Below are positions 15,278 to 21,691 of a stretch of DNA of 38,459 nt, in pieces (within the stretch, counting starts at the first letter, position 1; every line of letters begins with the position of its first letter). Source of the DNA: a virus (lineage: Duplodnaviria; Heunggongvirae; Uroviricota; Caudoviricetes). Below the pieces are notes generated by a model, which made no database searches, was not told where the DNA came from, and was given only the letters and a program-made list of their open reading frames with translations. The DNA lies in IMG/VR virus record IMGVR_UViG_2896607866_000012, positions 1 through 38,459 of that record. One strand, 5' to 3'. The position numbers were made by a program, and so were the translations under genes.

Positions 15278-17011
15278 TTAAAGCGAGCGGATCCCGTAGG
15301 ACTCAATGTGGTCAGACAGCGTGTCTTCTTTCTCGTACAGCATGGCTCTGCCAACCGCCATAATCAGCGCAACTGCACCATCGATTTTGTTTTCCGCCTG
15401 CTCTTTGACGGGCTTCACCACATCATCGTTACCCGGAATGGTTTTTCCGACCACGTTGCCGATACACCAGGTCATGATGGGATTGCCATCATGATGAAAG
15501 CGCCCCGATTCAATTGCCGCTTCCAGCTCTTTCATCGGGTCGGACATGTTGGTGTAGTTCTGAATGATGGTGACGGTGTTCAGGTCTTCATCAGCAAGGT
15601 CATGTGACAGCCCGGTCGCCCCGAAGGGGTCGATGGGTGACTCGCTGACCGGGCTGATTTTGTTCGCCGCTTTGGCCTCTTCGAGGATGTAGCGATAATC
15701 CACCTCTGCACCATCGGTAACGGTCAGGACGCCCATTTCCACCCATTTCTGAAAGCGTTCGGCTGTCCGGCGATCTTCATTTTTCTCGACGCTATACACC
15801 GCGTCATACGGTACCCAGAAACGCGGGGCCACACTGTAGTAATGCGTTTTACCGTCAATCTCGCGGGTATAAAGTCGCGCCATGCTGTTCATATCCAGCT
15901 TACGCTCCAGGTCAAAGGCCAGAATGCACGGCTGCCCCTCGAACTGCTCAAGGGTCAGTGATTTATCCTCGCAGCTCTGCCAGCTCACCAGGTTGAAATA
16001 CGCCGAACGCGCCGACACCTAGATATTGAGGTGTTTTGTTTTAAAGACGTTTGCCAGACGGGCGTTATTTTTCGCACGCTGCTGCTGACTTAACAAAAAT
16101 TCGCGATAAACCGACACGCCAATATTTGGATTGGCTTTTTCCAGCACCTGCGGGTCGGTCCAGTCGTCACCTTCATCAACGGTATAGATGATCCCGAACA
16201 GTTCATCGTTAGGCACCGAGCCGTTGAGCATCTCGATGACTTCCCGCCGCTTGTCGTAGCACGGCCCCTCAATGTTGTACCCGGCGGTGGTGATAGCCCA
16301 CATCAGTGGCTGACGTCGCGCCCCCATCCCGGTAAGCATCGTGGTGTAAAGCGCATCGGTGGCGTGCTCGTGATATTCATCCACCACCGCACAGTGGGGT
16401 GATGAACCATCACCGGGGTTACCGATCAGCGGTTCAAACCGCGCGCCATCCTCCGGACGATTCATGTTTGAGGCGTTAACCTCAATCCCGAACGCTTCCG
16501 TCAGCATGGGGGGGCGTTTACACATCAGTCGTGCCGGACGAAAGACTTCCCATGCCTGCTTCTCCGTCGTGGCACCGGAATACACTTCCGCGCCGAACTC
16601 GTTATCACAGGCAAAACAATACAGGGCGACACCGGCAGAGATTGCCGATTTGCCGTTCTTACGGGGGATTTCGGTATACACCTCACGGAAGCGGCGCAGC
16701 CGGGAGCCTTTATTGACCCAGCCAAACGCGCAGCAGATCACAAAGAGCTGCCACGGCTCCAGCGTGATGGGCATCCGTTTGAATGCCCACTCACCCTTGG
16801 TGTGTGGCAACAGCTGAATAAATTTCGCGGCCCGTTCAGCCAGGTCCTTGTCGAAGCGGTAACGAAACGACTTACTTTTTTCCGCCATCAGGTCATCAAG
16901 ATGGCGCTGGCAGGCCTGAATCACAAACTGGCAGGCCACAATCTTTCCGCGCACGACATCACGGGCATACTGATTGGCAGCATTTACGTTGGGGTAAGAT
17001 TTCCGGCTCAT
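15278..17011 (-). pseudogene. terminase large subunit interrupted by in-frame TAG (ATPase part 16022..17011, nuclease part 15278..16018)
   Basis: Two adjacent same-frame ORFs separated only by plus cta at 16019..16021 (minus TAG); together 578 codons. Confidence 0.75.
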
Positions 17012-17628: not shown

Positions 17629-18018
17629 TCACTTGAGCCGCTCACGCGCGGTCTTCGCTGCGTGACACGACCAGCACAGGCTTTCAAGGTTGCTGTCTTC
17701 ATCAGTACCGCCGTGGGCCTTCGCCTTGATGTGGTCCACGCAGGACGCCTGCTTCACTATCGCCTGCCGTAGATGGTTCTGACACAGCCCTTTGTCGCGC
17801 TTAAGTATCCGCTCCCGGATGACTTCCCACTTTGTTCCGTATCCTCGCTGCTGCCGTGATTGACCAGGCTTGTAGGACTTCCAGCCTTCACCTTTGTGAT
17901 TTTCACAGTAGCCAGATGGGTCTGTTGTGGTGTTGCGACAGCCGCGAACACGGCAAGCCTTTGGTGTGCGCGGTGGCATATTCACTCCCCAAAAAACGTA
18001 TAGCATTATCGCAGACAC
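17629..18018 (-). CDS. HNH endonuclease
   Basis: 129 aa ORF with Cys/His-rich motifs (CxxC, HxxxH pattern); canonical position upstream of terS in HK97-like cos phages. Confidence 0.8.
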   Translation of the reverse strand: MSAIMLYVFWGVNMPPRTPKACRVRGCRNTTTDPSGYCENHKGEGWKSYKPGQSRQQRGYGTKWEVIRERILKRDKGLCQNHLRQAIVKQASCVDHIKAKAHGGTDEDSNLESLCWSCHAAKTARERLK

Positions 18019-18042: not shown

Positions 18043-18246
18043 CTAATCGTCGAGTTGCAATACACCGTGCTCAAGTGACTCTGAGTAAGCGATCAGCCCT
18101 GTGTATTCAGGGATAATCTCGCCATCATCCGCTTCGAATTCCGGGATTGTACCAGTGGTGATGGTGTATTGGGGCTGACCATCTTCTTTCGCGAATGCTG
18201 CTAGGTCTTCAATCTGCTTAGCTGTAAGAACTACTGTCATGCTCAT
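18043..18246 (-). CDS. hypothetical acidic protein
   Basis: 67 aa ORF rich in Asp/Glu; no family recognised. Confidence 0.35.
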   Translation of the reverse strand: MSMTVVLTAKQIEDLAAFAKEDGQPQYTITTGTIPEFEADDGEIIPEYTGLIAYSESLEHGVLQLDD

Positions 18247-18304
18247 ACCTCAGTTGTTAAAAAGCCCCGCTATTGCGAGGCTATGATTGACTAAAGTGAT
18301 GCTG

Positions 18305-18580
18305 TCAGGTGTGGGTCCAAATGAATTTAACAATCCCAATAATGCTAGCCAGAACGCCAAAACCAAAAATAAATTGACCACATACCCCTATGATTCCCGA
18401 TGCAATGGCACCGGCATTTGTCTGAGCATTTTCGTTTATGCTCGCCCCCACTAGATACATAATCAAACCAACTATGAGAGATGCGATAATCCAATGTTCC
18501 ACTGCTAATACAATTACAATGCTCAAAATATCTGCTAAACCATCACTATGACCACTCACTGCATATCCTTGCTTTGACAT
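18305..18580 (-). CDS. hypothetical membrane protein
   Basis: 91 aa ORF with about three predicted TM helices in a visibly AT-rich stretch; TATAAT-like element about 25 nt upstream of ATG; no obvious SD. Confidence 0.4.
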   Translation of the reverse strand: MSKQGYAVSGHSDGLADILSIVIVLAVEHWIIASLIVGLIMYLVGASINENAQTNAGAIASGIIGVCGQFIFGFGVLASIIGIVKFIWTHT

Positions 18581-18646
18581 TTGAAAAATTCATCACTGGA
18601 TTATAATTGTTTACACCCTTCATAGTCGTTCGAATATGATAAAAAA

Positions 18647-19183
18647 TCAATTGTGGGGGATAGCGTTATTTGACTCTCTCAACGAGTCGTAAATACGTTC
18701 ACACGTCATCCCGGCGGTGTAGCGTTCGTCAGCGATTCCAGCATAACGTTTAGCTTCTGCTGCAATATCTCCGAGCATGTCGGCGAACATTCCGGCGTCG
18801 GCGTCGGTTGTTTTGCTTCGGACGGCAGCGGCAAGATCAGCGGTGTGCTTTGCGGCGTCCAGGCGTGCGGCAAGCTTTGTTGCTTCGGTACGCAACTGGC
18901 TAACAGTGGCAGACAGGCCAGCAGCAGTGGCAGCAGATTTAGCGGCTTGTGCTTGTGCATCTTTTACAGCCTCATCACGGGCAATTATGCGCCCTTGTTC
19001 AATCCAGCGTGCGGCAGTCTGCGCGTTCGCTTCCTGTGAAGATTCCATGCTATTGTGGTCAGCCCACTTCTTTTGCCAGCCCCGCTCACTCCAGATGTTC
19101 CCGGCAAAAAATGCACCAGCCAACATCAGCAAAACAATGATTGTTTTCCACCGCGCCTGAACAAAAGCAAAGACCGCTGTCAT
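18647..19183 (-). CDS. Rz-like i-spanin
   Basis: 178 aa ORF with N-terminal TM and Ala/Gln-rich coiled coil, downstream of endolysin, with embedded Rz1-like ORF. Confidence 0.65.
18706..18960 (-). CDS. Rz1-like o-spanin lipoprotein
   Basis: ORF embedded in +1 frame inside Rz; lipobox LLASC and Pro-rich C-terminus; true start probably downstream of annotated first Met. Confidence 0.55.
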
Positions 19184-19797
19184 ACCAGCAACGCCGCCCG
19201 CGCTTTGTTATAACGACTATTTCTGTCAGCCAGTCCATTCTGGCCACCGTTGATGATCTGCGTTACACGGACAACATCACCTGAATACATCAGACAACCA
19301 CGTAATGTGAAATACCATGCAGCAGAACGGGCTGCATGTTTCTCCTGTGTCAGCAACTCTGGTGTGCTGATCAGATCCAACTTCAGCGCCGCACCGCATT
19401 TGGCGTAGTTCTCGCGGCCGGTGATTTGAAGCAGGCCACGACCGCGATATTTCCAGCCGTCACCCTGGCTGTTATTCCCCATGCGGTCACCATAAACCAG
19501 ATTGGCTATTTGCGGCTGGTGGGCTACCTGCTTACCATCGACACGCCCCAGCATTTCACACTGATAAGGCGTCAGGCGTTTACTAAAGGTTTTCTTCAGC
19601 CCGTCTACCGAGTAGTTGAAGCTTTCCACCAGCGAGGTAAAACCAGCAGATTCATGCCCAACTTGTGCAATGAACATGGCCTGATCGTTAACTGCTGTGA
19701 TTCCAAACTCTTTCATTGCAGCATCAATGTGCGGAAACCAGCGCGCAGCCAGCCCGGCGCTAATACCAGCCGCCTTTTGAAATAATTGTTGGTTCAT
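19180..19797 (-). CDS. endolysin, glycoside hydrolase family 19 type
   Basis: 205 aa ORF with GH19-like motifs; lysis cassette position. Confidence 0.8.
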
Positions 19798-20078
19798 TAG
19801 TGCCTCAGATGATCAACCAGACGTGCAACGTTGCCTCTGACGGCCACCAGCACGGAAAGAAAAATAGTGTTCGCCACGATAATGGGCCATGAGGAATGGG
19901 GATAAATCCCACAGAGATAGGCCAACGGAACAGCACTGTATGTAACAGTAATCAGCCAGGCTAAACGTGAAACCCAAGGACGATGCCGCGAATCACCACG
20001 ACGATAAAACATCAGAGTAATAACAACACAAGCACATAACAGCGCATTTATAGTTGCTGTCGGGTCATTTAGCTCCAC
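19797..20078 (-). CDS. holin-like / lysis accessory membrane protein
   Basis: 93 aa ORF with predicted TM helices immediately upstream of endolysin. Confidence 0.45.
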   Translation of the reverse strand: MELNDPTATINALLCACVVITLMFYRRGDSRHRPWVSRLAWLITVTYSAVPLAYLCGIYPHSSWPIIVANTIFLSVLVAVRGNVARLVDHLRH

Positions 20079-20451
20079 CTGAACCTCCCCGGCGCGTTAT
20101 GAGCGCCACCAGCGAGCCGATATCCTGATTATTCAGGAACGTCAGGATTTTAACGGCTAAAGCAGAGACGATTACGGCACCAATAGCATCCAGCGGTTTA
20201 TCACTGTATCCGGTCAAGTGCGCCAGCTTGGAGCCAACCAACCCAGAGCAAAGGATCCCGGCAATATATGACACGATAAAATATGCCAGTCGGCGCGATG
20301 CACTCAGATCTGCTGCTGTTGCTATGTAGAATACAGCCCCTGCAAATGCGTCAAATACAACGCCGTAATCAGTTCCGGTCAGCAGTCCATAAACACTGGC
20401 ACCCGTCAGGGCACCACCAGCCAGCCCAGTACCGGAAATCGGATCGGACAT
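20065..20451 (-). CDS. putative holin
   Basis: 128 aa Gly/Ala-rich membrane ORF at start of lysis cassette. Confidence 0.5.
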   Translation of the reverse strand: MSDPISGTGLAGGALTGASVYGLLTGTDYGVVFDAFAGAVFYIATAADLSASRRLAYFIVSYIAGILCSGLVGSKLAHLTGYSDKPLDAIGAVIVSALAVKILTFLNNQDIGSLVALITRRGGSGGAK

Positions 20452-20530
20452 TTAGCCCCCTCTTAATTGCTGTTGGTCCTCTCAGATATGAGGGGAAGGG
20501 ATCTTAATGACAGTCTATTTATTATTTCAG

Positions 20531-20788
20531 TCAAACACTACCCTGTTGATGATTTCTCAGAAGCGAACTTGACTCCCAGGGGAAACTCAACTTTCCGTTA
20601 AAACCACCAGCAGACACTCGTTCAATTTCCACAGAAATATCACTGAGCCGTTCTTCAAGCTCTGCTTTTTCTTTTACCAGACGGTTATAGCGGCTTAGAT
20701 GAAGCTTTTGCTGCTCCAGCCAGTCTTCAAGCTGTTCAACAGTCATACCAGGGTTAAAAAAATATGGCTGCTGCTTTTCGCCCTGCAT
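20531..20788 (-). CDS. hypothetical coiled-coil protein (85 aa from internal ATG)
   Basis: ATG at 20788 preceded by GGAGG; the track's longer N-terminus (to 20857) overlaps a terminator hairpin and is rejected. Confidence 0.3.
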   Translation of the reverse strand: MQGEKQQPYFFNPGMTVEQLEDWLEQQKLHLSRYNRLVKEKAELEERLSDISVEIERVSAGGFNGKLSFPWESSSLLRNHQQGSV

Positions 20789-20800
20789 TATTGACCTCCA

Positions 20801-20828
20801 GAAAAGCAAAAACCCCGCCGAAGCGAGG
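20801..20828 (-). terminator. rho-independent terminator (tR'-like) downstream of Q
   Basis: Minus strand CCUCGC-UUCG-GCGGGG (one G-U pair) followed by UUUUUGCUUUUC. Confidence 0.45.
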
Positions 20829-20881
20829 TTTGTTATGATTTCGTTAACGGCAGACATACAAAGCCCATAGTTAGGAGAATC

Positions 20882-21691
20882 CTAACCATATTTTTTGAAA
20901 AATGCAAGCATCATGTCGCCATCTTCGGCGAAAATCATTTGTCTTGTCACTTTTCTCAATTGTGTCTCTGCATATGCTTCTTCCTGCCAGCACTTTGTAA
21001 CCAGTTTATCAATGACATCTGCATATCCTTTGTACCACTGATAATCCGTCAGGTCCGGTACCAGCTTCTGGACATGATGCCGCGCCAGTGTGGTTGGTAA
21101 ACGGCTAAACCGGTTTCCATTGCAACGCCCACAAATCTTATAAACAGGCGTGCCATGAAGCCGGGTCCTTTTTTCATCCAGGACAATACCTTTACCCTTA
21201 CACCCTCTGCACGCTGTGCTGACTTCTCCCTTACCATGACAATGCTGACATAGTTCCTTCACCCACTCCTCCTTGATAACAGATTCACCGCTTCTGGAGT
21301 GTTTCACCACTTCGCGCAATACATTATGAAATCCAGTACCAGCACAATGCTCACAGCGAGCCTTACTTGCCGCAGACCTGGAATAATCAGCAAAGGCAAA
21401 ATTCACAAGGTAAGGGATGAGCTGTAACCGGGTTTCTTCACTCAATTTATTCAATGTCGGATTATCCAGTGCCATCGCGTAATTGAGCAGACCTTCAATC
21501 GCAAACTGAGGATCCTGAACACCAACTTTTGCCAGGAATAAGGCAAATCCAAGCGGTGCTTTCGACTGCACCATCCCCTGCGCAGCCATCACATCCGTAA
21601 TCGTTAAACCACCCGAGCCTGTCGCCGGTGCGTCATCGCTCAGTTTTGGAGATTTTGGGGAGTAATATTTTGGTAAGGCTTCAAGGTTCAT
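20882..21691 (-). CDS. late antiterminator Q family protein
   Basis: 269 aa ORF with Cys-rich zinc-binding cluster immediately upstream of lysis genes. Confidence 0.8.
   Translation of the reverse strand: MNLEALPKYYSPKSPKLSDDAPATGSGGLTITDVMAAQGMVQSKAPLGFALFLAKVGVQDPQFAIEGLLNYAMALDNPTLNKLSEETRLQLIPYLVNFAFADYSRSAASKARCEHCAGTGFHNVLREVVKHSRSGESVIKEEWVKELCQHCHGKGEVSTACRGCKGKGIVLDEKRTRLHGTPVYKICGRCNGNRFSRLPTTLARHHVQKLVPDLTDYQWYKGYADVIDKLVTKCWQEEAYAETQLRKVTRQMIFAEDGDMMLAFFKKYG

What the first reader, a model, noticed from the sequence alone, without database searches (positions are those of the whole stretch)
18043..18646. AT-rich two-gene moron between Rz/Rz1 and the HNH-terminase block
A 91 aa protein with about three TM helices (18305..18580) and a 67 aa highly acidic protein (18043..18246) sit in a stretch that is visibly more AT-rich than the surrounding phage genes. 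The membrane gene has a TATAAT-like element about 25 nt upstream but no clear SD. A small membrane protein paired with an acidic partner at a known lambdoid moron site is the typical arrangement for superinfection-exclusion or toxin/antitoxin-like cargo. I cannot assign either to a family.
Basis: partly seen in the sequence, partly recalled or inferred. Interest (0 to 1): 0.5.

Follow-up and report, generated by a model that had tools for sequence, protein, structure and literature searches.

The report
Membrane-protein moron beside a separate acidic gene
The two small genes are real but are not a pair: one is an AT-rich, self-contained add-on gene ("moron") for a two-helix membrane protein, and the other is a widespread, independently inherited acidic late gene of phage N15 gp56 type, and neither has a known function.

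Summary
Both ORFs exist and both evolve under strong purifying selection (dN/dS 0.03-0.4). The likely starts are shorter than reported. The membrane protein is 84 aa, starting at GTG 18559 behind an AAGGA Shine-Dalgarno (SD) sequence. It is predicted as two long helices, not three. The acidic protein is 65 aa, starting at ATG 18240.

Only the membrane module (18289-18669) is unusually AT-rich. Its GC of 0.386 is in the lowest 0.13% of same-size windows. The acidic gene (GC 0.48) is not unusual.

The genes are not a unit. The acidic gene (N15 gp56 family, phrog_9518) occurs without the membrane gene in mEp390, N15, E. coli Nissle and 16 viral contigs. The membrane gene (phrog_28582) occurs without the acidic gene in five Enterobacter prophages.

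A strong hairpin plus U-run separates them. This 23-nt element is exact in at least 120 viral contigs and usually contains the spanin stop codon. Cargo on both sides of it varies, and Salmonella phage F1055 has an empty slot.

The membrane gene has an invariant TATAAT, its own SD and this terminator, so it fits the classic moron definition. No family, fold or defence-system match assigns a function to either protein. A superinfection-exclusion-like role for the membrane protein is an inference only.

This is a new member of a known kind, of modest interest.

The parts
18289..18669 (-). AT-rich moron module (promoter-like -10, 5' UTR, SD and membrane-protein gene) inserted between the 3' end of Rz and the conserved post-lysis hairpin
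   Evidence: GC is 0.386, in the lowest 0.13% of same-size windows. Homology to F1055 Rz stops at about 18670. Homology to the mEp390 acidic module stops at 18288. In relatives the slot is empty or holds other cargo.
18600..18605 (-). TATAAT (-10-like hexamer) of the moron
   Evidence: TATAATC is invariant in 9 loci, 33-40 nt upstream of the start, while flanking non-coding sequence and synonymous sites are diverged or saturated. The -35 is poor (at most 3 of 6), and the consensus scan did not call a promoter.
18566..18570 (-). Shine-Dalgarno AAGGA for the GTG start of the membrane gene
   Evidence: Read directly from the sequence. Equivalent AGGA/GGA elements precede the homologues' starts.
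18305..18559 (-). Membrane-protein CDS, 84 aa, GTG start (phrog_28582). The longer 91-aa ORF extends to 18580.
   Evidence: phrog_28582 E=3.5e-54. Homologues are 84-85 aa. dN/dS is 0.06-0.4. AlphaFold2 predicts a two-helix hairpin at pLDDT 86.7. GRAVY is 1.26 with 11 Gly.
18259..18282 (-). Intrinsic-terminator-like hairpin: 8-bp G+C-rich stem, AAUA loop and U-run. It is the conserved end-of-lysis-cassette element.
   Evidence: Free energy is -14.1 kcal/mol, z=-6.06. The exact 23-mer occurs in at least 120 IMG/VR contigs. The same stem-loop is annotated as a putative rho-independent terminator upstream of N15 gene 56. The spanin stop codon lies in its loop in most loci. The simple terminator scan did not flag it.
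18248..18251 (-). Shine-Dalgarno GAGG of the acidic gene
   Evidence: It lies 7 nt upstream of ATG 18240. The block hairpin-AACAACTGAGGAATGAGCATG is conserved in mEp390, QEC11-421, Nissle and L145.
18043..18240 (-). Acidic 65-aa protein CDS (N15 gp56 family, phrog_9518). The ORF extends to 18246.
   Evidence: phrog_9518 E=1.7e-40. There are 264 protein clusters across Enterobacteriaceae, the best 120 of them 89-98% identical to the query. Identity to N15 gp56 is 54%. dN/dS is 0.03-0.10. There is no promoter between the hairpin and the SD.
18647..19183 (-). Rz-like i-spanin (DUF2514) with embedded Rz1 (18706-18960). This is the upstream flank of the slot.
   Evidence: Pfam DUF2514 E=2.7e-42 and phrog_312.
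17629..17979 (-). HNH endonuclease of the HNH/TerS(P27)/TerL packaging block. This is the downstream flank of the slot.
   Evidence: Pfam HNH and phrog_144. RefSeq annotates 351 nt. Homology of the packaging block in other E. coli prophages stops at about 17981-17988.
20882..21691 (-). Q antiterminator. It places the region about 2 kb into the Q-dependent late operon.
   Evidence: Pfam Antiterm PF03589 E=1.5e-53.

Best explanation
The interval holds two independent accessory cassettes. They flank a conserved terminator hairpin that marks the end of lambdoid lysis cassettes.

Cassette 1 (18289-18669) is a single-gene moron:
- It is an AT-rich insert with an invariant TATAAT, a 40-nt leader, an AAGGA SD and a GTG start.
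- It encodes an 84-aa protein predicted as a two-helix hairpin.
- Conserved features are an E-H-W motif in helix 1, a polar INENAQTNAGA tip, a glycine-rich helix 2 and a K-F-x-W C-terminus.
- Transcripts from its own promoter would stop at the hairpin (18259-18282).

Inferred, not shown: the gene is expressed from the repressed prophage and acts in the inner membrane as a lysogenic-conversion function. The most likely role is superinfection exclusion or envelope protection, in the manner of HK97 gp15. I put that specific role at about 0.35.

Cassette 2 is the N15 gp56-type acidic 65-aa gene. It starts 18 nt after the U-run and has no promoter of its own. It can therefore be made only when Q-modified RNA polymerase from the late promoter reads through the hairpin, which makes it a late lytic-cycle protein. 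Its function is unknown. A candidate is a soluble acidic decoy or anti-defence factor (inference, about 0.2).

The two genes are neighbours because both slots at the hairpin are recombination hot spots, not because they work together.

The confidence value applies to the architecture and expression logic. The specific functions carry the lower probabilities given above.
For: Real genes: dN/dS is 0.06-0.4 for the membrane gene, with saturated dS, and 0.03-0.10 for the acidic gene.

Independence:
- The acidic gene follows the spanin and hairpin directly in mEp390, QEC11-421, Nissle, N15 and SaltyDalty. It does so in 16 of the 122 hairpin sites in viral contigs that lack the membrane gene.
- The membrane gene has no acidic gene nearby in L005, L007, L008, L010, L017, L139, L140 and L142.
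- In L145 an Ant-like gene and a second hairpin separate the two.

Insertion and variable slot:
- F1055 has Rz, hairpin and HNH with nothing between.
- L081, L091 and L043 have an empty Rz-hairpin slot.
- L022 and its relatives hold a 54-aa zinc-ribbon gene there, and L048 and L062 hold other genes.

Composition: GC is 0.386 against a window mean of 0.525. The gene stays at about 0.40-0.45 GC in all hosts.

Promoter: TATAATC is invariant in 9 loci.

Terminator: -14.1 kcal/mol, z=-6, with compensatory stem changes in the L005 group. The N15 annotation agrees.

Structure: pLDDT 86.7, two helices.

Not tied to lysis genes: distant homologues sit in a tail module and in other phage regions.

Late-operon position: Q lies just upstream.

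Definition: the moron definition and the gp15 precedent come from PMC3594210.
Against: - No -35 better than 3 of 6, and no extended -10. The consensus promoter scan found nothing on this strand. Prophage-state expression is therefore unproven.
- The terminator scan did not flag the hairpin, and its U-run is only 4-5 U.
- The hairpin pre-exists in phages that lack the moron, so it is borrowed rather than brought in.
- No sequence or fold similarity to any characterised exclusion, defence, holin or toxin protein. The functional part is analogy only.
- In the closest relatives with readable downstream sequence (the window type and L145) the acidic gene is present nearby. Linkage within that sub-lineage cannot be told apart from weak functional association.
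- The acidic protein model has low confidence (pLDDT 58).
Confidence: 0.6

Rival explanations
1. The two genes form one functional two-gene cassette, either a toxin/antitoxin-like pair or a membrane effector with an acidic partner, acquired together.
For: They are adjacent and co-oriented in the window and in 10 E. coli genomes. They also lie in the same neighbourhood in L145.
Against: - Each gene is found many times without the other.
- A strong terminator hairpin lies between them.
- Their GC contents differ, 0.39 against 0.47-0.48.
- In L145 another gene and a second hairpin separate them.
- There are no PADLOC, Pfam or NCBIfam matches.
Confidence: 0.05
2. The membrane protein is a lysis accessory, such as an antiholin, a pinholin-like protein or a lysis-timing modulator. 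It would be expressed only as part of the Q-dependent late transcript.
For: - It lies just downstream of the spanin genes and upstream of the end-of-lysis hairpin in the window and in 8 related loci (L005, L008, L010, L012, L017, L144, L145, L146). In L007 a 289-aa ORF and a 461-nt gap intervene.
- It is a small two-TM protein with a glycine-rich second helix and polar residues within the membrane.
- The window has an in-frame upstream ATG that adds a Lys-containing extension, reminiscent of dual-start holins.
Against: - There is no holin profile match. The best PHROG holin hit has E=0.35.
- The cassette already has two holin-family genes.
- Phages with the same cassette lack the gene (F1055 and mEp390).
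- It follows different lysis cassettes in L012 and L144.
- Distant homologues lie in a tail module and other non-lysis contexts.
- The upstream ATG is not conserved.
- A conserved -10 would be unnecessary for a purely late gene.
Confidence: 0.15
3. The membrane protein is a pore-forming or depolarising small toxin. It would act in abortive infection or in a type-I-toxin-like addiction role and be kept silent in the lysogen.
For: - Glycine-zipper-like helix 2.
- Conserved Glu, His and Gln within the membrane.
- Very hydrophobic, GRAVY 1.26.
- AT-rich and horizontally mobile.
Against: - No antisense RNA or antitoxin candidate. Rfam gives only a sub-threshold hit.
- At 84 aa with two helices it is larger than typical type I toxins.
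- No PADLOC match.
- Frameshifted variants are rare.
Confidence: 0.1
4. The membrane protein is an orphan immunity protein against a membrane-targeting bacteriocin or microcin.
For: Its size, two-TM topology and low GC resemble small microcin immunity proteins. This rests on my own knowledge and was not tested.
Against: No bacteriocin genes lie nearby in any locus. No family match was found.
Confidence: 0.05

Closest known systems
HK97 gp15 moron, and lambda bor/lom-type morons (Juhala/Hendrix definition; review PMC3594210)
   Same: A single small gene inserted in the late operon between genes that are adjacent in relatives. Its GC differs from its neighbours. It has its own -10 and a terminator. 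It encodes a small inner-membrane protein.
   Different: - There is no sequence or profile similarity to gp15, Bor or Lom.
- The -35 is weak.
- The terminator is a pre-existing lysis-cassette hairpin rather than one brought in by the insert.
- Expression in lysogens and any exclusion phenotype are untested.
Phage N15 gp56 (AAC19093.1), mEp390 gp053 and phrog_9518
   Same: The acidic 65-aa protein is a full-length homologue: 54% identity to N15 gp56 and 95% to mEp390 gp053. It sits in the same position, as the first gene after the post-lysis stem-loop.
   Different: Nothing functional is known for any member. Here it is followed by an HNH/P27-type terminase block rather than by the N15 or mEp390 neighbours.
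T4 Imm (Pfam Imm_superinfect) and P22 SieA superinfection-exclusion membrane proteins
   Same: Small phage-encoded inner-membrane proteins. Imm is also about 83 aa with two TM helices (my own knowledge).
   Different: No Pfam hit at E<=1. Membership is not supported, and only the general mode of action is borrowed.
Pinholin S21 and class II holins
   Same: Two transmembrane helices, a glycine-rich second helix, and a position next to lysis genes.
   Different: - No profile match.
- It lies after the spanins, not before the endolysin.
- It is dispensable in phages with the same lysis cassette.
- Distant homologues are found outside lysis cassettes.

Membership tests
Moron (independent transcription unit added to a phage operon; PMC3594210, PMC2629481) | Lies between two genes that are adjacent in related phages | tested here: met
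   In F1055, Rz, the hairpin and HNH are contiguous. In L081, L091 and L043 and in mEp390, the spanin, hairpin and acidic gene are contiguous.
Moron (independent transcription unit added to a phage operon; PMC3594210, PMC2629481) | Nucleotide composition differs from surrounding genes | tested here: met
   The module has GC 0.386 against flanks of 0.53-0.56, in the lowest 0.13% of windows. This holds for the membrane gene only, not for the acidic gene.
Moron (independent transcription unit added to a phage operon; PMC3594210, PMC2629481) | Own sigma-70 promoter | tested here: inconclusive
   A perfect TATAAT is invariant in 9 diverged loci. The -35 matches at most 3 of 6, and the consensus scan found no promoter.
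Moron (independent transcription unit added to a phage operon; PMC3594210, PMC2629481) | Own factor-independent terminator | tested here: met
   An 8-bp G+C-rich stem plus U-run lies 22 nt after the stop codon, at -14.1 kcal/mol and z=-6. The Enterobacter homologues have a different hairpin with compensatory changes. Caveats: the hairpin pre-exists in phages without the insert, and the simple scan did not flag it.
Moron (independent transcription unit added to a phage operon; PMC3594210, PMC2629481) | Expressed from the repressed prophage | not testable with these tools
   This needs a lysogen transcriptome or 5'-RACE.
Two-gene toxin-antitoxin or effector-partner cassette | The two genes co-occur and are inherited together | tested here: not met
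   The acidic gene occurs alone in 16 of 122 hairpin sites and in mEp390, N15, Nissle and QEC11-421. The membrane gene occurs alone in L005, L007, L008, L010, L017, L139, L140 and L142.
Two-gene toxin-antitoxin or effector-partner cassette | Co-transcribed as one tight operon | tested here: not met
   A 64-nt spacer containing a strong terminator hairpin lies between them.
Two-gene toxin-antitoxin or effector-partner cassette | Similarity to known TA or defence families | tested here: not met
   PADLOC, Pfam and NCBIfam give no significant hit.
Known superinfection-exclusion membrane proteins (T4 Imm, P22 SieA, HK97 gp15) | Sequence or profile similarity | tested here: not met
   Pfam gives no hit at E<=1. 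PHROGs gives only the unknown-function phrog_28582. The BFVD fold search has no match at E<=0.001.
Known superinfection-exclusion membrane proteins (T4 Imm, P22 SieA, HK97 gp15) | Blocks infection by incoming phage when expressed in a lysogen | not testable with these tools
   This needs plating assays.
Holin / pinholin | Match to a holin family profile | tested here: not met
   There is no Pfam holin hit. The best PHROG holin, phrog_6384, has E=0.35.
Holin / pinholin | Obligate part of the lysis cassette, adjacent to the endolysin | tested here: not met
   It lies after the spanins. It is absent from F1055 and mEp390, which have the same cassette. Distant homologues lie outside lysis cassettes.
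Holin / pinholin | Dual-start motif | tested here: inconclusive
   The window has an in-frame ATG (MSKQGYA) 7 codons upstream of the GTG. That ATG has no SD and is not conserved in homologues.
N15 gp56 / phrog_9518 family (acidic protein) | Full-length sequence similarity | tested here: met
   phrog_9518 E=1.7e-40 over residues 2-67. Identity is 54% to N15 gp56 and 95% to mEp390 gp053.
N15 gp56 / phrog_9518 family (acidic protein) | First gene after the post-lysis stem-loop | tested here: met
   The same hairpin, SD and ATG arrangement occurs in the window, mEp390, QEC11-421, Nissle, N15 and L145. The gene starts at +42 from the hairpin in 14 viral contigs.

The most novel reading that the evidence does not exclude
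The 84-aa two-helix protein (phrog_28582) would be the founding member of a new family of phage-borne inner-membrane exclusion or defence effectors, moving between phages as a minimal promoter-gene-terminator unit. The very widespread, strongly constrained N15 gp56-type acidic protein would be a late-expressed anti-defence decoy. The exact 23-nt hairpin that carries the spanin stop codon would be a dedicated recombination linker that lets lambdoid phages swap cargo on both of its sides.
Probability: 0.15. Interest if true: 0.55.

Novelty: new member of a known kind. Interest (0 to 1): 0.27.

Why it matters
If the membrane protein proves to be expressed in lysogens and to protect them, it would add a new, very small family to the known prophage-encoded exclusion and defence functions. 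It would also be a clean example of a minimal moron.

The more general point concerns the site itself. The end of the lysis cassette in many lambdoid phages is marked by a nearly invariant hairpin with variable cargo on both sides. That makes it a convenient landmark for mining accessory genes.

The acidic gp56 family is common and strongly constrained across Enterobacteriaceae prophages. It is completely uncharacterised and is a reasonable target for functional screens.

None of this changes current understanding. It is an ordinary moron-site finding with the gene pairing corrected.

Tried and rejected
Searches that gave no functional assignment:
- Pfam, NCBIfam and PADLOC scans of both proteins gave nothing significant.
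- PHROGs matched only unknown-function families.
- tblastn of the membrane protein against 50,697 phage records found no match.
- The species-representative genome scan found only 2 Enterobacter loci.
- A profile search of 1.8 billion representatives found 7 hits. Five were small proteins of this family, two of them truncated or frameshifted copies, and two were long repetitive proteins that are probably composition artefacts.
- Foldseek of the membrane model against BFVD had no hit at E<=0.001, as expected for a helical hairpin.
- afdb50 was unavailable.
- The acidic protein model was poor (pLDDT 58), and its PDB fold search was meaningless.
- PDB sequence-profile searches for both proteins found nothing.
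- Rfam found only a sub-threshold STnc100 hit (E=0.42, 17.9 bits against a gathering score of 47), which I rejected.
- Literature searches by accession numbers, PHROG ids and N15 gp56 found nothing relevant.
- PHROG scans of the neighbours of the distant homologues gave no functional clue.

Ideas considered and rejected:
- A three-TM topology.
- A start at ATG 18580.
- Junk ORFs (dN/dS).
- A two-gene unit (distribution data).

Full report
**Context.** The window is an E. coli lambdoid/HK97-type prophage. The 641-nt interval is 100% identical in 8 complete E. coli genomes and at least 99.7% identical in 10 of 5,426. One of these is strain KSC1031, where the prophage lies next to tRNA-Thr/proA. 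All relevant genes are on the minus strand. In transcription order they are:
- Q antiterminator, 20882-21691 (Pfam Antiterm)
- two holin-family genes
- a GH19 endolysin
- Rz (DUF2514) with embedded Rz1
- the two ORFs of the finding
- an HNH endonuclease, a P27-type TerS and TerL

**Checking the observation.** Both ORFs exist at the stated coordinates. GC falls to 0.38-0.43 across 18200-18800, against 0.52-0.59 on either side.

The interval 18043-18646 has GC 0.421, in the lowest 0.26% of same-length windows. The dip is confined to the membrane module 18289-18669 (GC 0.386, lowest 0.13%). The acidic gene at GC 0.48 is at the 21st percentile and is unremarkable.

Both genes are real and constrained. 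Pairwise dN/dS is 0.06-0.4 for the membrane gene, with synonymous sites near saturation. It is 0.03-0.10 for the acidic gene.

**Re-annotation.**
- Twenty homologues of the membrane protein are 84-85 aa and start at codon 8 of the 91-aa ORF.
- In the window that codon is GTG at 18559, preceded by AAGGA at a 6-nt spacing. Homologues have AGGA or GGA at the same place.
- The upstream ATG (18580) and its reading frame are not conserved. This explains the 'missing SD'.
- AlphaFold2 on an 18-sequence alignment gives a confident model (pLDDT 86.7) of two long helices, residues 4-44 and 48-83, which is a helical hairpin and not three TM segments.
- Invariant or near-invariant positions are E21-H22-W23 in helix 1, the polar tip I41-N-E-N-A-Q-T-N-A-G-A, several glycines in helix 2, and K78-F-x-W81.
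- The acidic gene most likely starts at the second ATG (18240), giving 65 aa. GAGG is 7 nt upstream of it, and RefSeq agrees. The protein has 14 acidic and 2 basic residues and a pI of 4.05.

**The two genes are not a unit.**
- The acidic gene belongs to phrog_9518 (E=1.7e-40). It has 264 protein clusters across Escherichia, Citrobacter, Enterobacter, Kluyvera and Leclercia, and the best 120 of them are 89-98% identical to the query.
- It is 95% identical to mEp390 gp053 and 54% identical to N15 gp56.
- In mEp390, E. coli QEC11-421, Nissle 1917, SaltyDalty and N15 it directly follows the spanin gene(s), with no membrane gene. These phages have different lysis cassettes and different packaging genes.
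- The membrane gene (phrog_28582, E=3.5e-54) is rare. It has 26 clusters, occurs in 2 of 185,579 species-representative genomes, and gives 7 hits in 1.8 billion representatives.
- In Enterobacter prophages L005, L007, L008, L010 and L017 it sits after the spanin, but other genes follow it: a GvpU-like protein, a 485-aa protein, methyltransferases and DUF2513. There is no acidic gene within the 4-6 kb held on either side.
- Distant homologues (30-50% identity) lie in a myovirus tail module (L139) and among unknown genes of AT-rich phages (L140, L142).
- In L145, a close relative, a P22-antirepressor-like gene and a second hairpin lie between the membrane gene and the acidic gene.

**The hairpin between them.**
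- Twenty-two nt after the membrane-gene stop lies AGCCUCGC-AAUA-GCGGGGCU followed by UUUU (18259-18282).
- It folds at -14.1 kcal/mol, z=-6.06 against shuffles.
- The same element, followed by AACAACTGAGGAATGAGCATG, precedes the acidic gene in every context examined.
- The N15 authors annotated it as a putative rho-independent terminator upstream of gene 56.
- In at least 63 of the 110 sites with an ORF ending at the hairpin, that ORF is a spanin whose last codons (..A-S-Q-stop) are encoded by the 5' arm and loop. The hairpin is therefore the native end of the lysis cassette.
- Downstream of it I found 29 unrelated protein clusters among 112 sites. The acidic gene is present at 17 of 122 sites.
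- Upstream, between a DUF2514 Rz and the hairpin, the slot takes four forms:
  - empty (F1055, L081, L091, L043)
  - a 54-aa zinc-ribbon gene (L022, L070, L138, L031)
  - a 76-aa gene plus an opposite-strand 57-aa gene (L048, L062)
  - the membrane gene (the window and L049)
- All of these cargoes are AT-rich (GC 0.39-0.45).
- In F1055 the hairpin is followed directly by HNH, so both genes of the finding are dispensable for this lysis/packaging combination.

**Is the membrane gene a moron?** The definition is an insert between genes that are adjacent elsewhere, with deviant GC and its own promoter and terminator, expressed from the prophage (PMC3594210; PMC2629481).
- Position and composition are met.
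- A terminator is present, though it is the pre-existing lysis-cassette hairpin. The Enterobacter subgroup has a different hairpin at the same place with compensatory stem changes.
- For the promoter, TATAATC is invariant in nine loci, 33-40 nt upstream of the start, although the surrounding non-coding DNA and the synonymous sites have diverged heavily.
- However, the -35 is at best 3 of 6, and the consensus scan called neither this promoter nor this terminator.
- Expression in the lysogen is therefore plausible but unproven.

**Expression logic (inferred).** In a lysogen, transcripts from the moron -10 would end at the hairpin, so only the membrane protein would be made. The acidic gene starts 18 nt after the U-run and has no room for a promoter. 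It should be made only when Q-modified polymerase from the late promoter, with Q just upstream, reads through the hairpin. That would make it a late protein.

**Function.** Nothing assigns one.
- Pfam, NCBIfam and PADLOC are negative.
- Fold searches are uninformative, and afdb50 was unavailable.
- PDB sequence profiles are negative.
- No literature was found.

For the membrane protein I favour a prophage-expressed inner-membrane function of the superinfection-exclusion or envelope-protection type, at about 0.35. Four observations point that way:
- It travels as a self-contained unit with a conserved -10.
- It is independent of lysis-cassette type and even of genome position.
- It keeps about 0.40-0.45 GC in hosts of 0.53-0.57.
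- It has a conserved polar helix tip suited to contacting a partner at the membrane surface.

A lysis-timing role (about 0.15) is disfavoured by its absence from phages with the same cassette and by homologues outside lysis cassettes. A depolarising toxin (about 0.1) and an orphan bacteriocin immunity protein (about 0.05) remain possible.

For the acidic protein I can say only that it is a strongly constrained, probably soluble, late-expressed accessory protein. An acidic decoy or anti-defence role is a guess (about 0.2).

**Verdict.** The interpretation as a variable moron site is right. The 'paired two-gene cargo' and toxin/antitoxin reading is not supported. This is a new, uncharacterised member of a well-known kind of element, and its interest is modest.

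Noticed in passing
window 16019-16021 (minus strand, inside TerL, 15278-17011): The large terminase gene carries an in-frame amber codon. The window has T at 16020 where E. coli KSC1031 has C, which changes TGG (Trp) to TAG. This splits TerL into a 330-aa ATPase part and a 246-aa nuclease part in the same frame. Unless it is a sequencing error, the prophage is probably packaging-defective.
   Followed up: partly
window 18259-18281 (minus strand); loci L019-L138: The exact 23-mer GCCTCGCAATAGCGGGGCTTTTT occurs in at least 120 IMG/VR viral contigs. In most of them the stop codon of a spanin lies in the hairpin loop, for three unrelated spanin types that all end in ..ASQ*. Cargo varies on both sides. 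It looks like a conserved module-boundary or terminator element at which lambdoid phages exchange accessory genes.
   Followed up: partly
window 20451-20882, including ORF 20531-20857 (108 aa, minus strand): A second AT-rich stretch (GC 0.41-0.43) lies between the Q antiterminator and the first holin gene. It contains a 108-aa ORF with no Pfam match. It may hold the late promoter and terminator region, another accessory gene, or both.
   Followed up: no
window 19797-20451 (minus strand): Two different holin-family genes sit in tandem (Phage_holin_8, 128 aa, and Phage_holin_3_7, 93 aa) and overlap by 14 nt. The same pair recurs in F1055, mEp390 and the Enterobacter prophages.
   Followed up: no
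L145 209-727: A close relative that carries the membrane gene has a KwaA (Kiwa defence system) homologue on the opposite strand, just upstream of the holin. This shows that defence genes occupy neighbouring accessory slots of these prophages.
   Followed up: no
proteins P0018, P0020, P0021 (metagenome and SRA assemblies): Some copies of the membrane gene are frameshifted in helix 2 and read into the alternative frame that the ORF listing also shows in the window (18250-18381). This is either assembly error or occasional decay of the gene.
   Followed up: no
window versus L002 (KSC1031), whole length: The window is collinear with the KSC1031 prophage at a fixed offset only over about 6.0-11.9 kb and 15.1-20.45 kb. 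Elsewhere the ungapped comparison falls to random level, because of either indels or different modules. The prophage in the window is therefore not the same mosaic as any annotated genome I inspected. IMG/VR contig IMGVR_UViG_2737471817_000007 (L049) is 99-100% identical at protein level from the C-terminal part of Rz through TerS.
   Followed up: partly
window 18252-18345 (minus strand): There is a sub-threshold Rfam match to the Salmonella sRNA STnc100 (17.9 bits against a gathering score of 47, E=0.42). It overlaps the hairpin and the 3' end of the membrane gene and is probably driven by the terminator alone.
   Followed up: no
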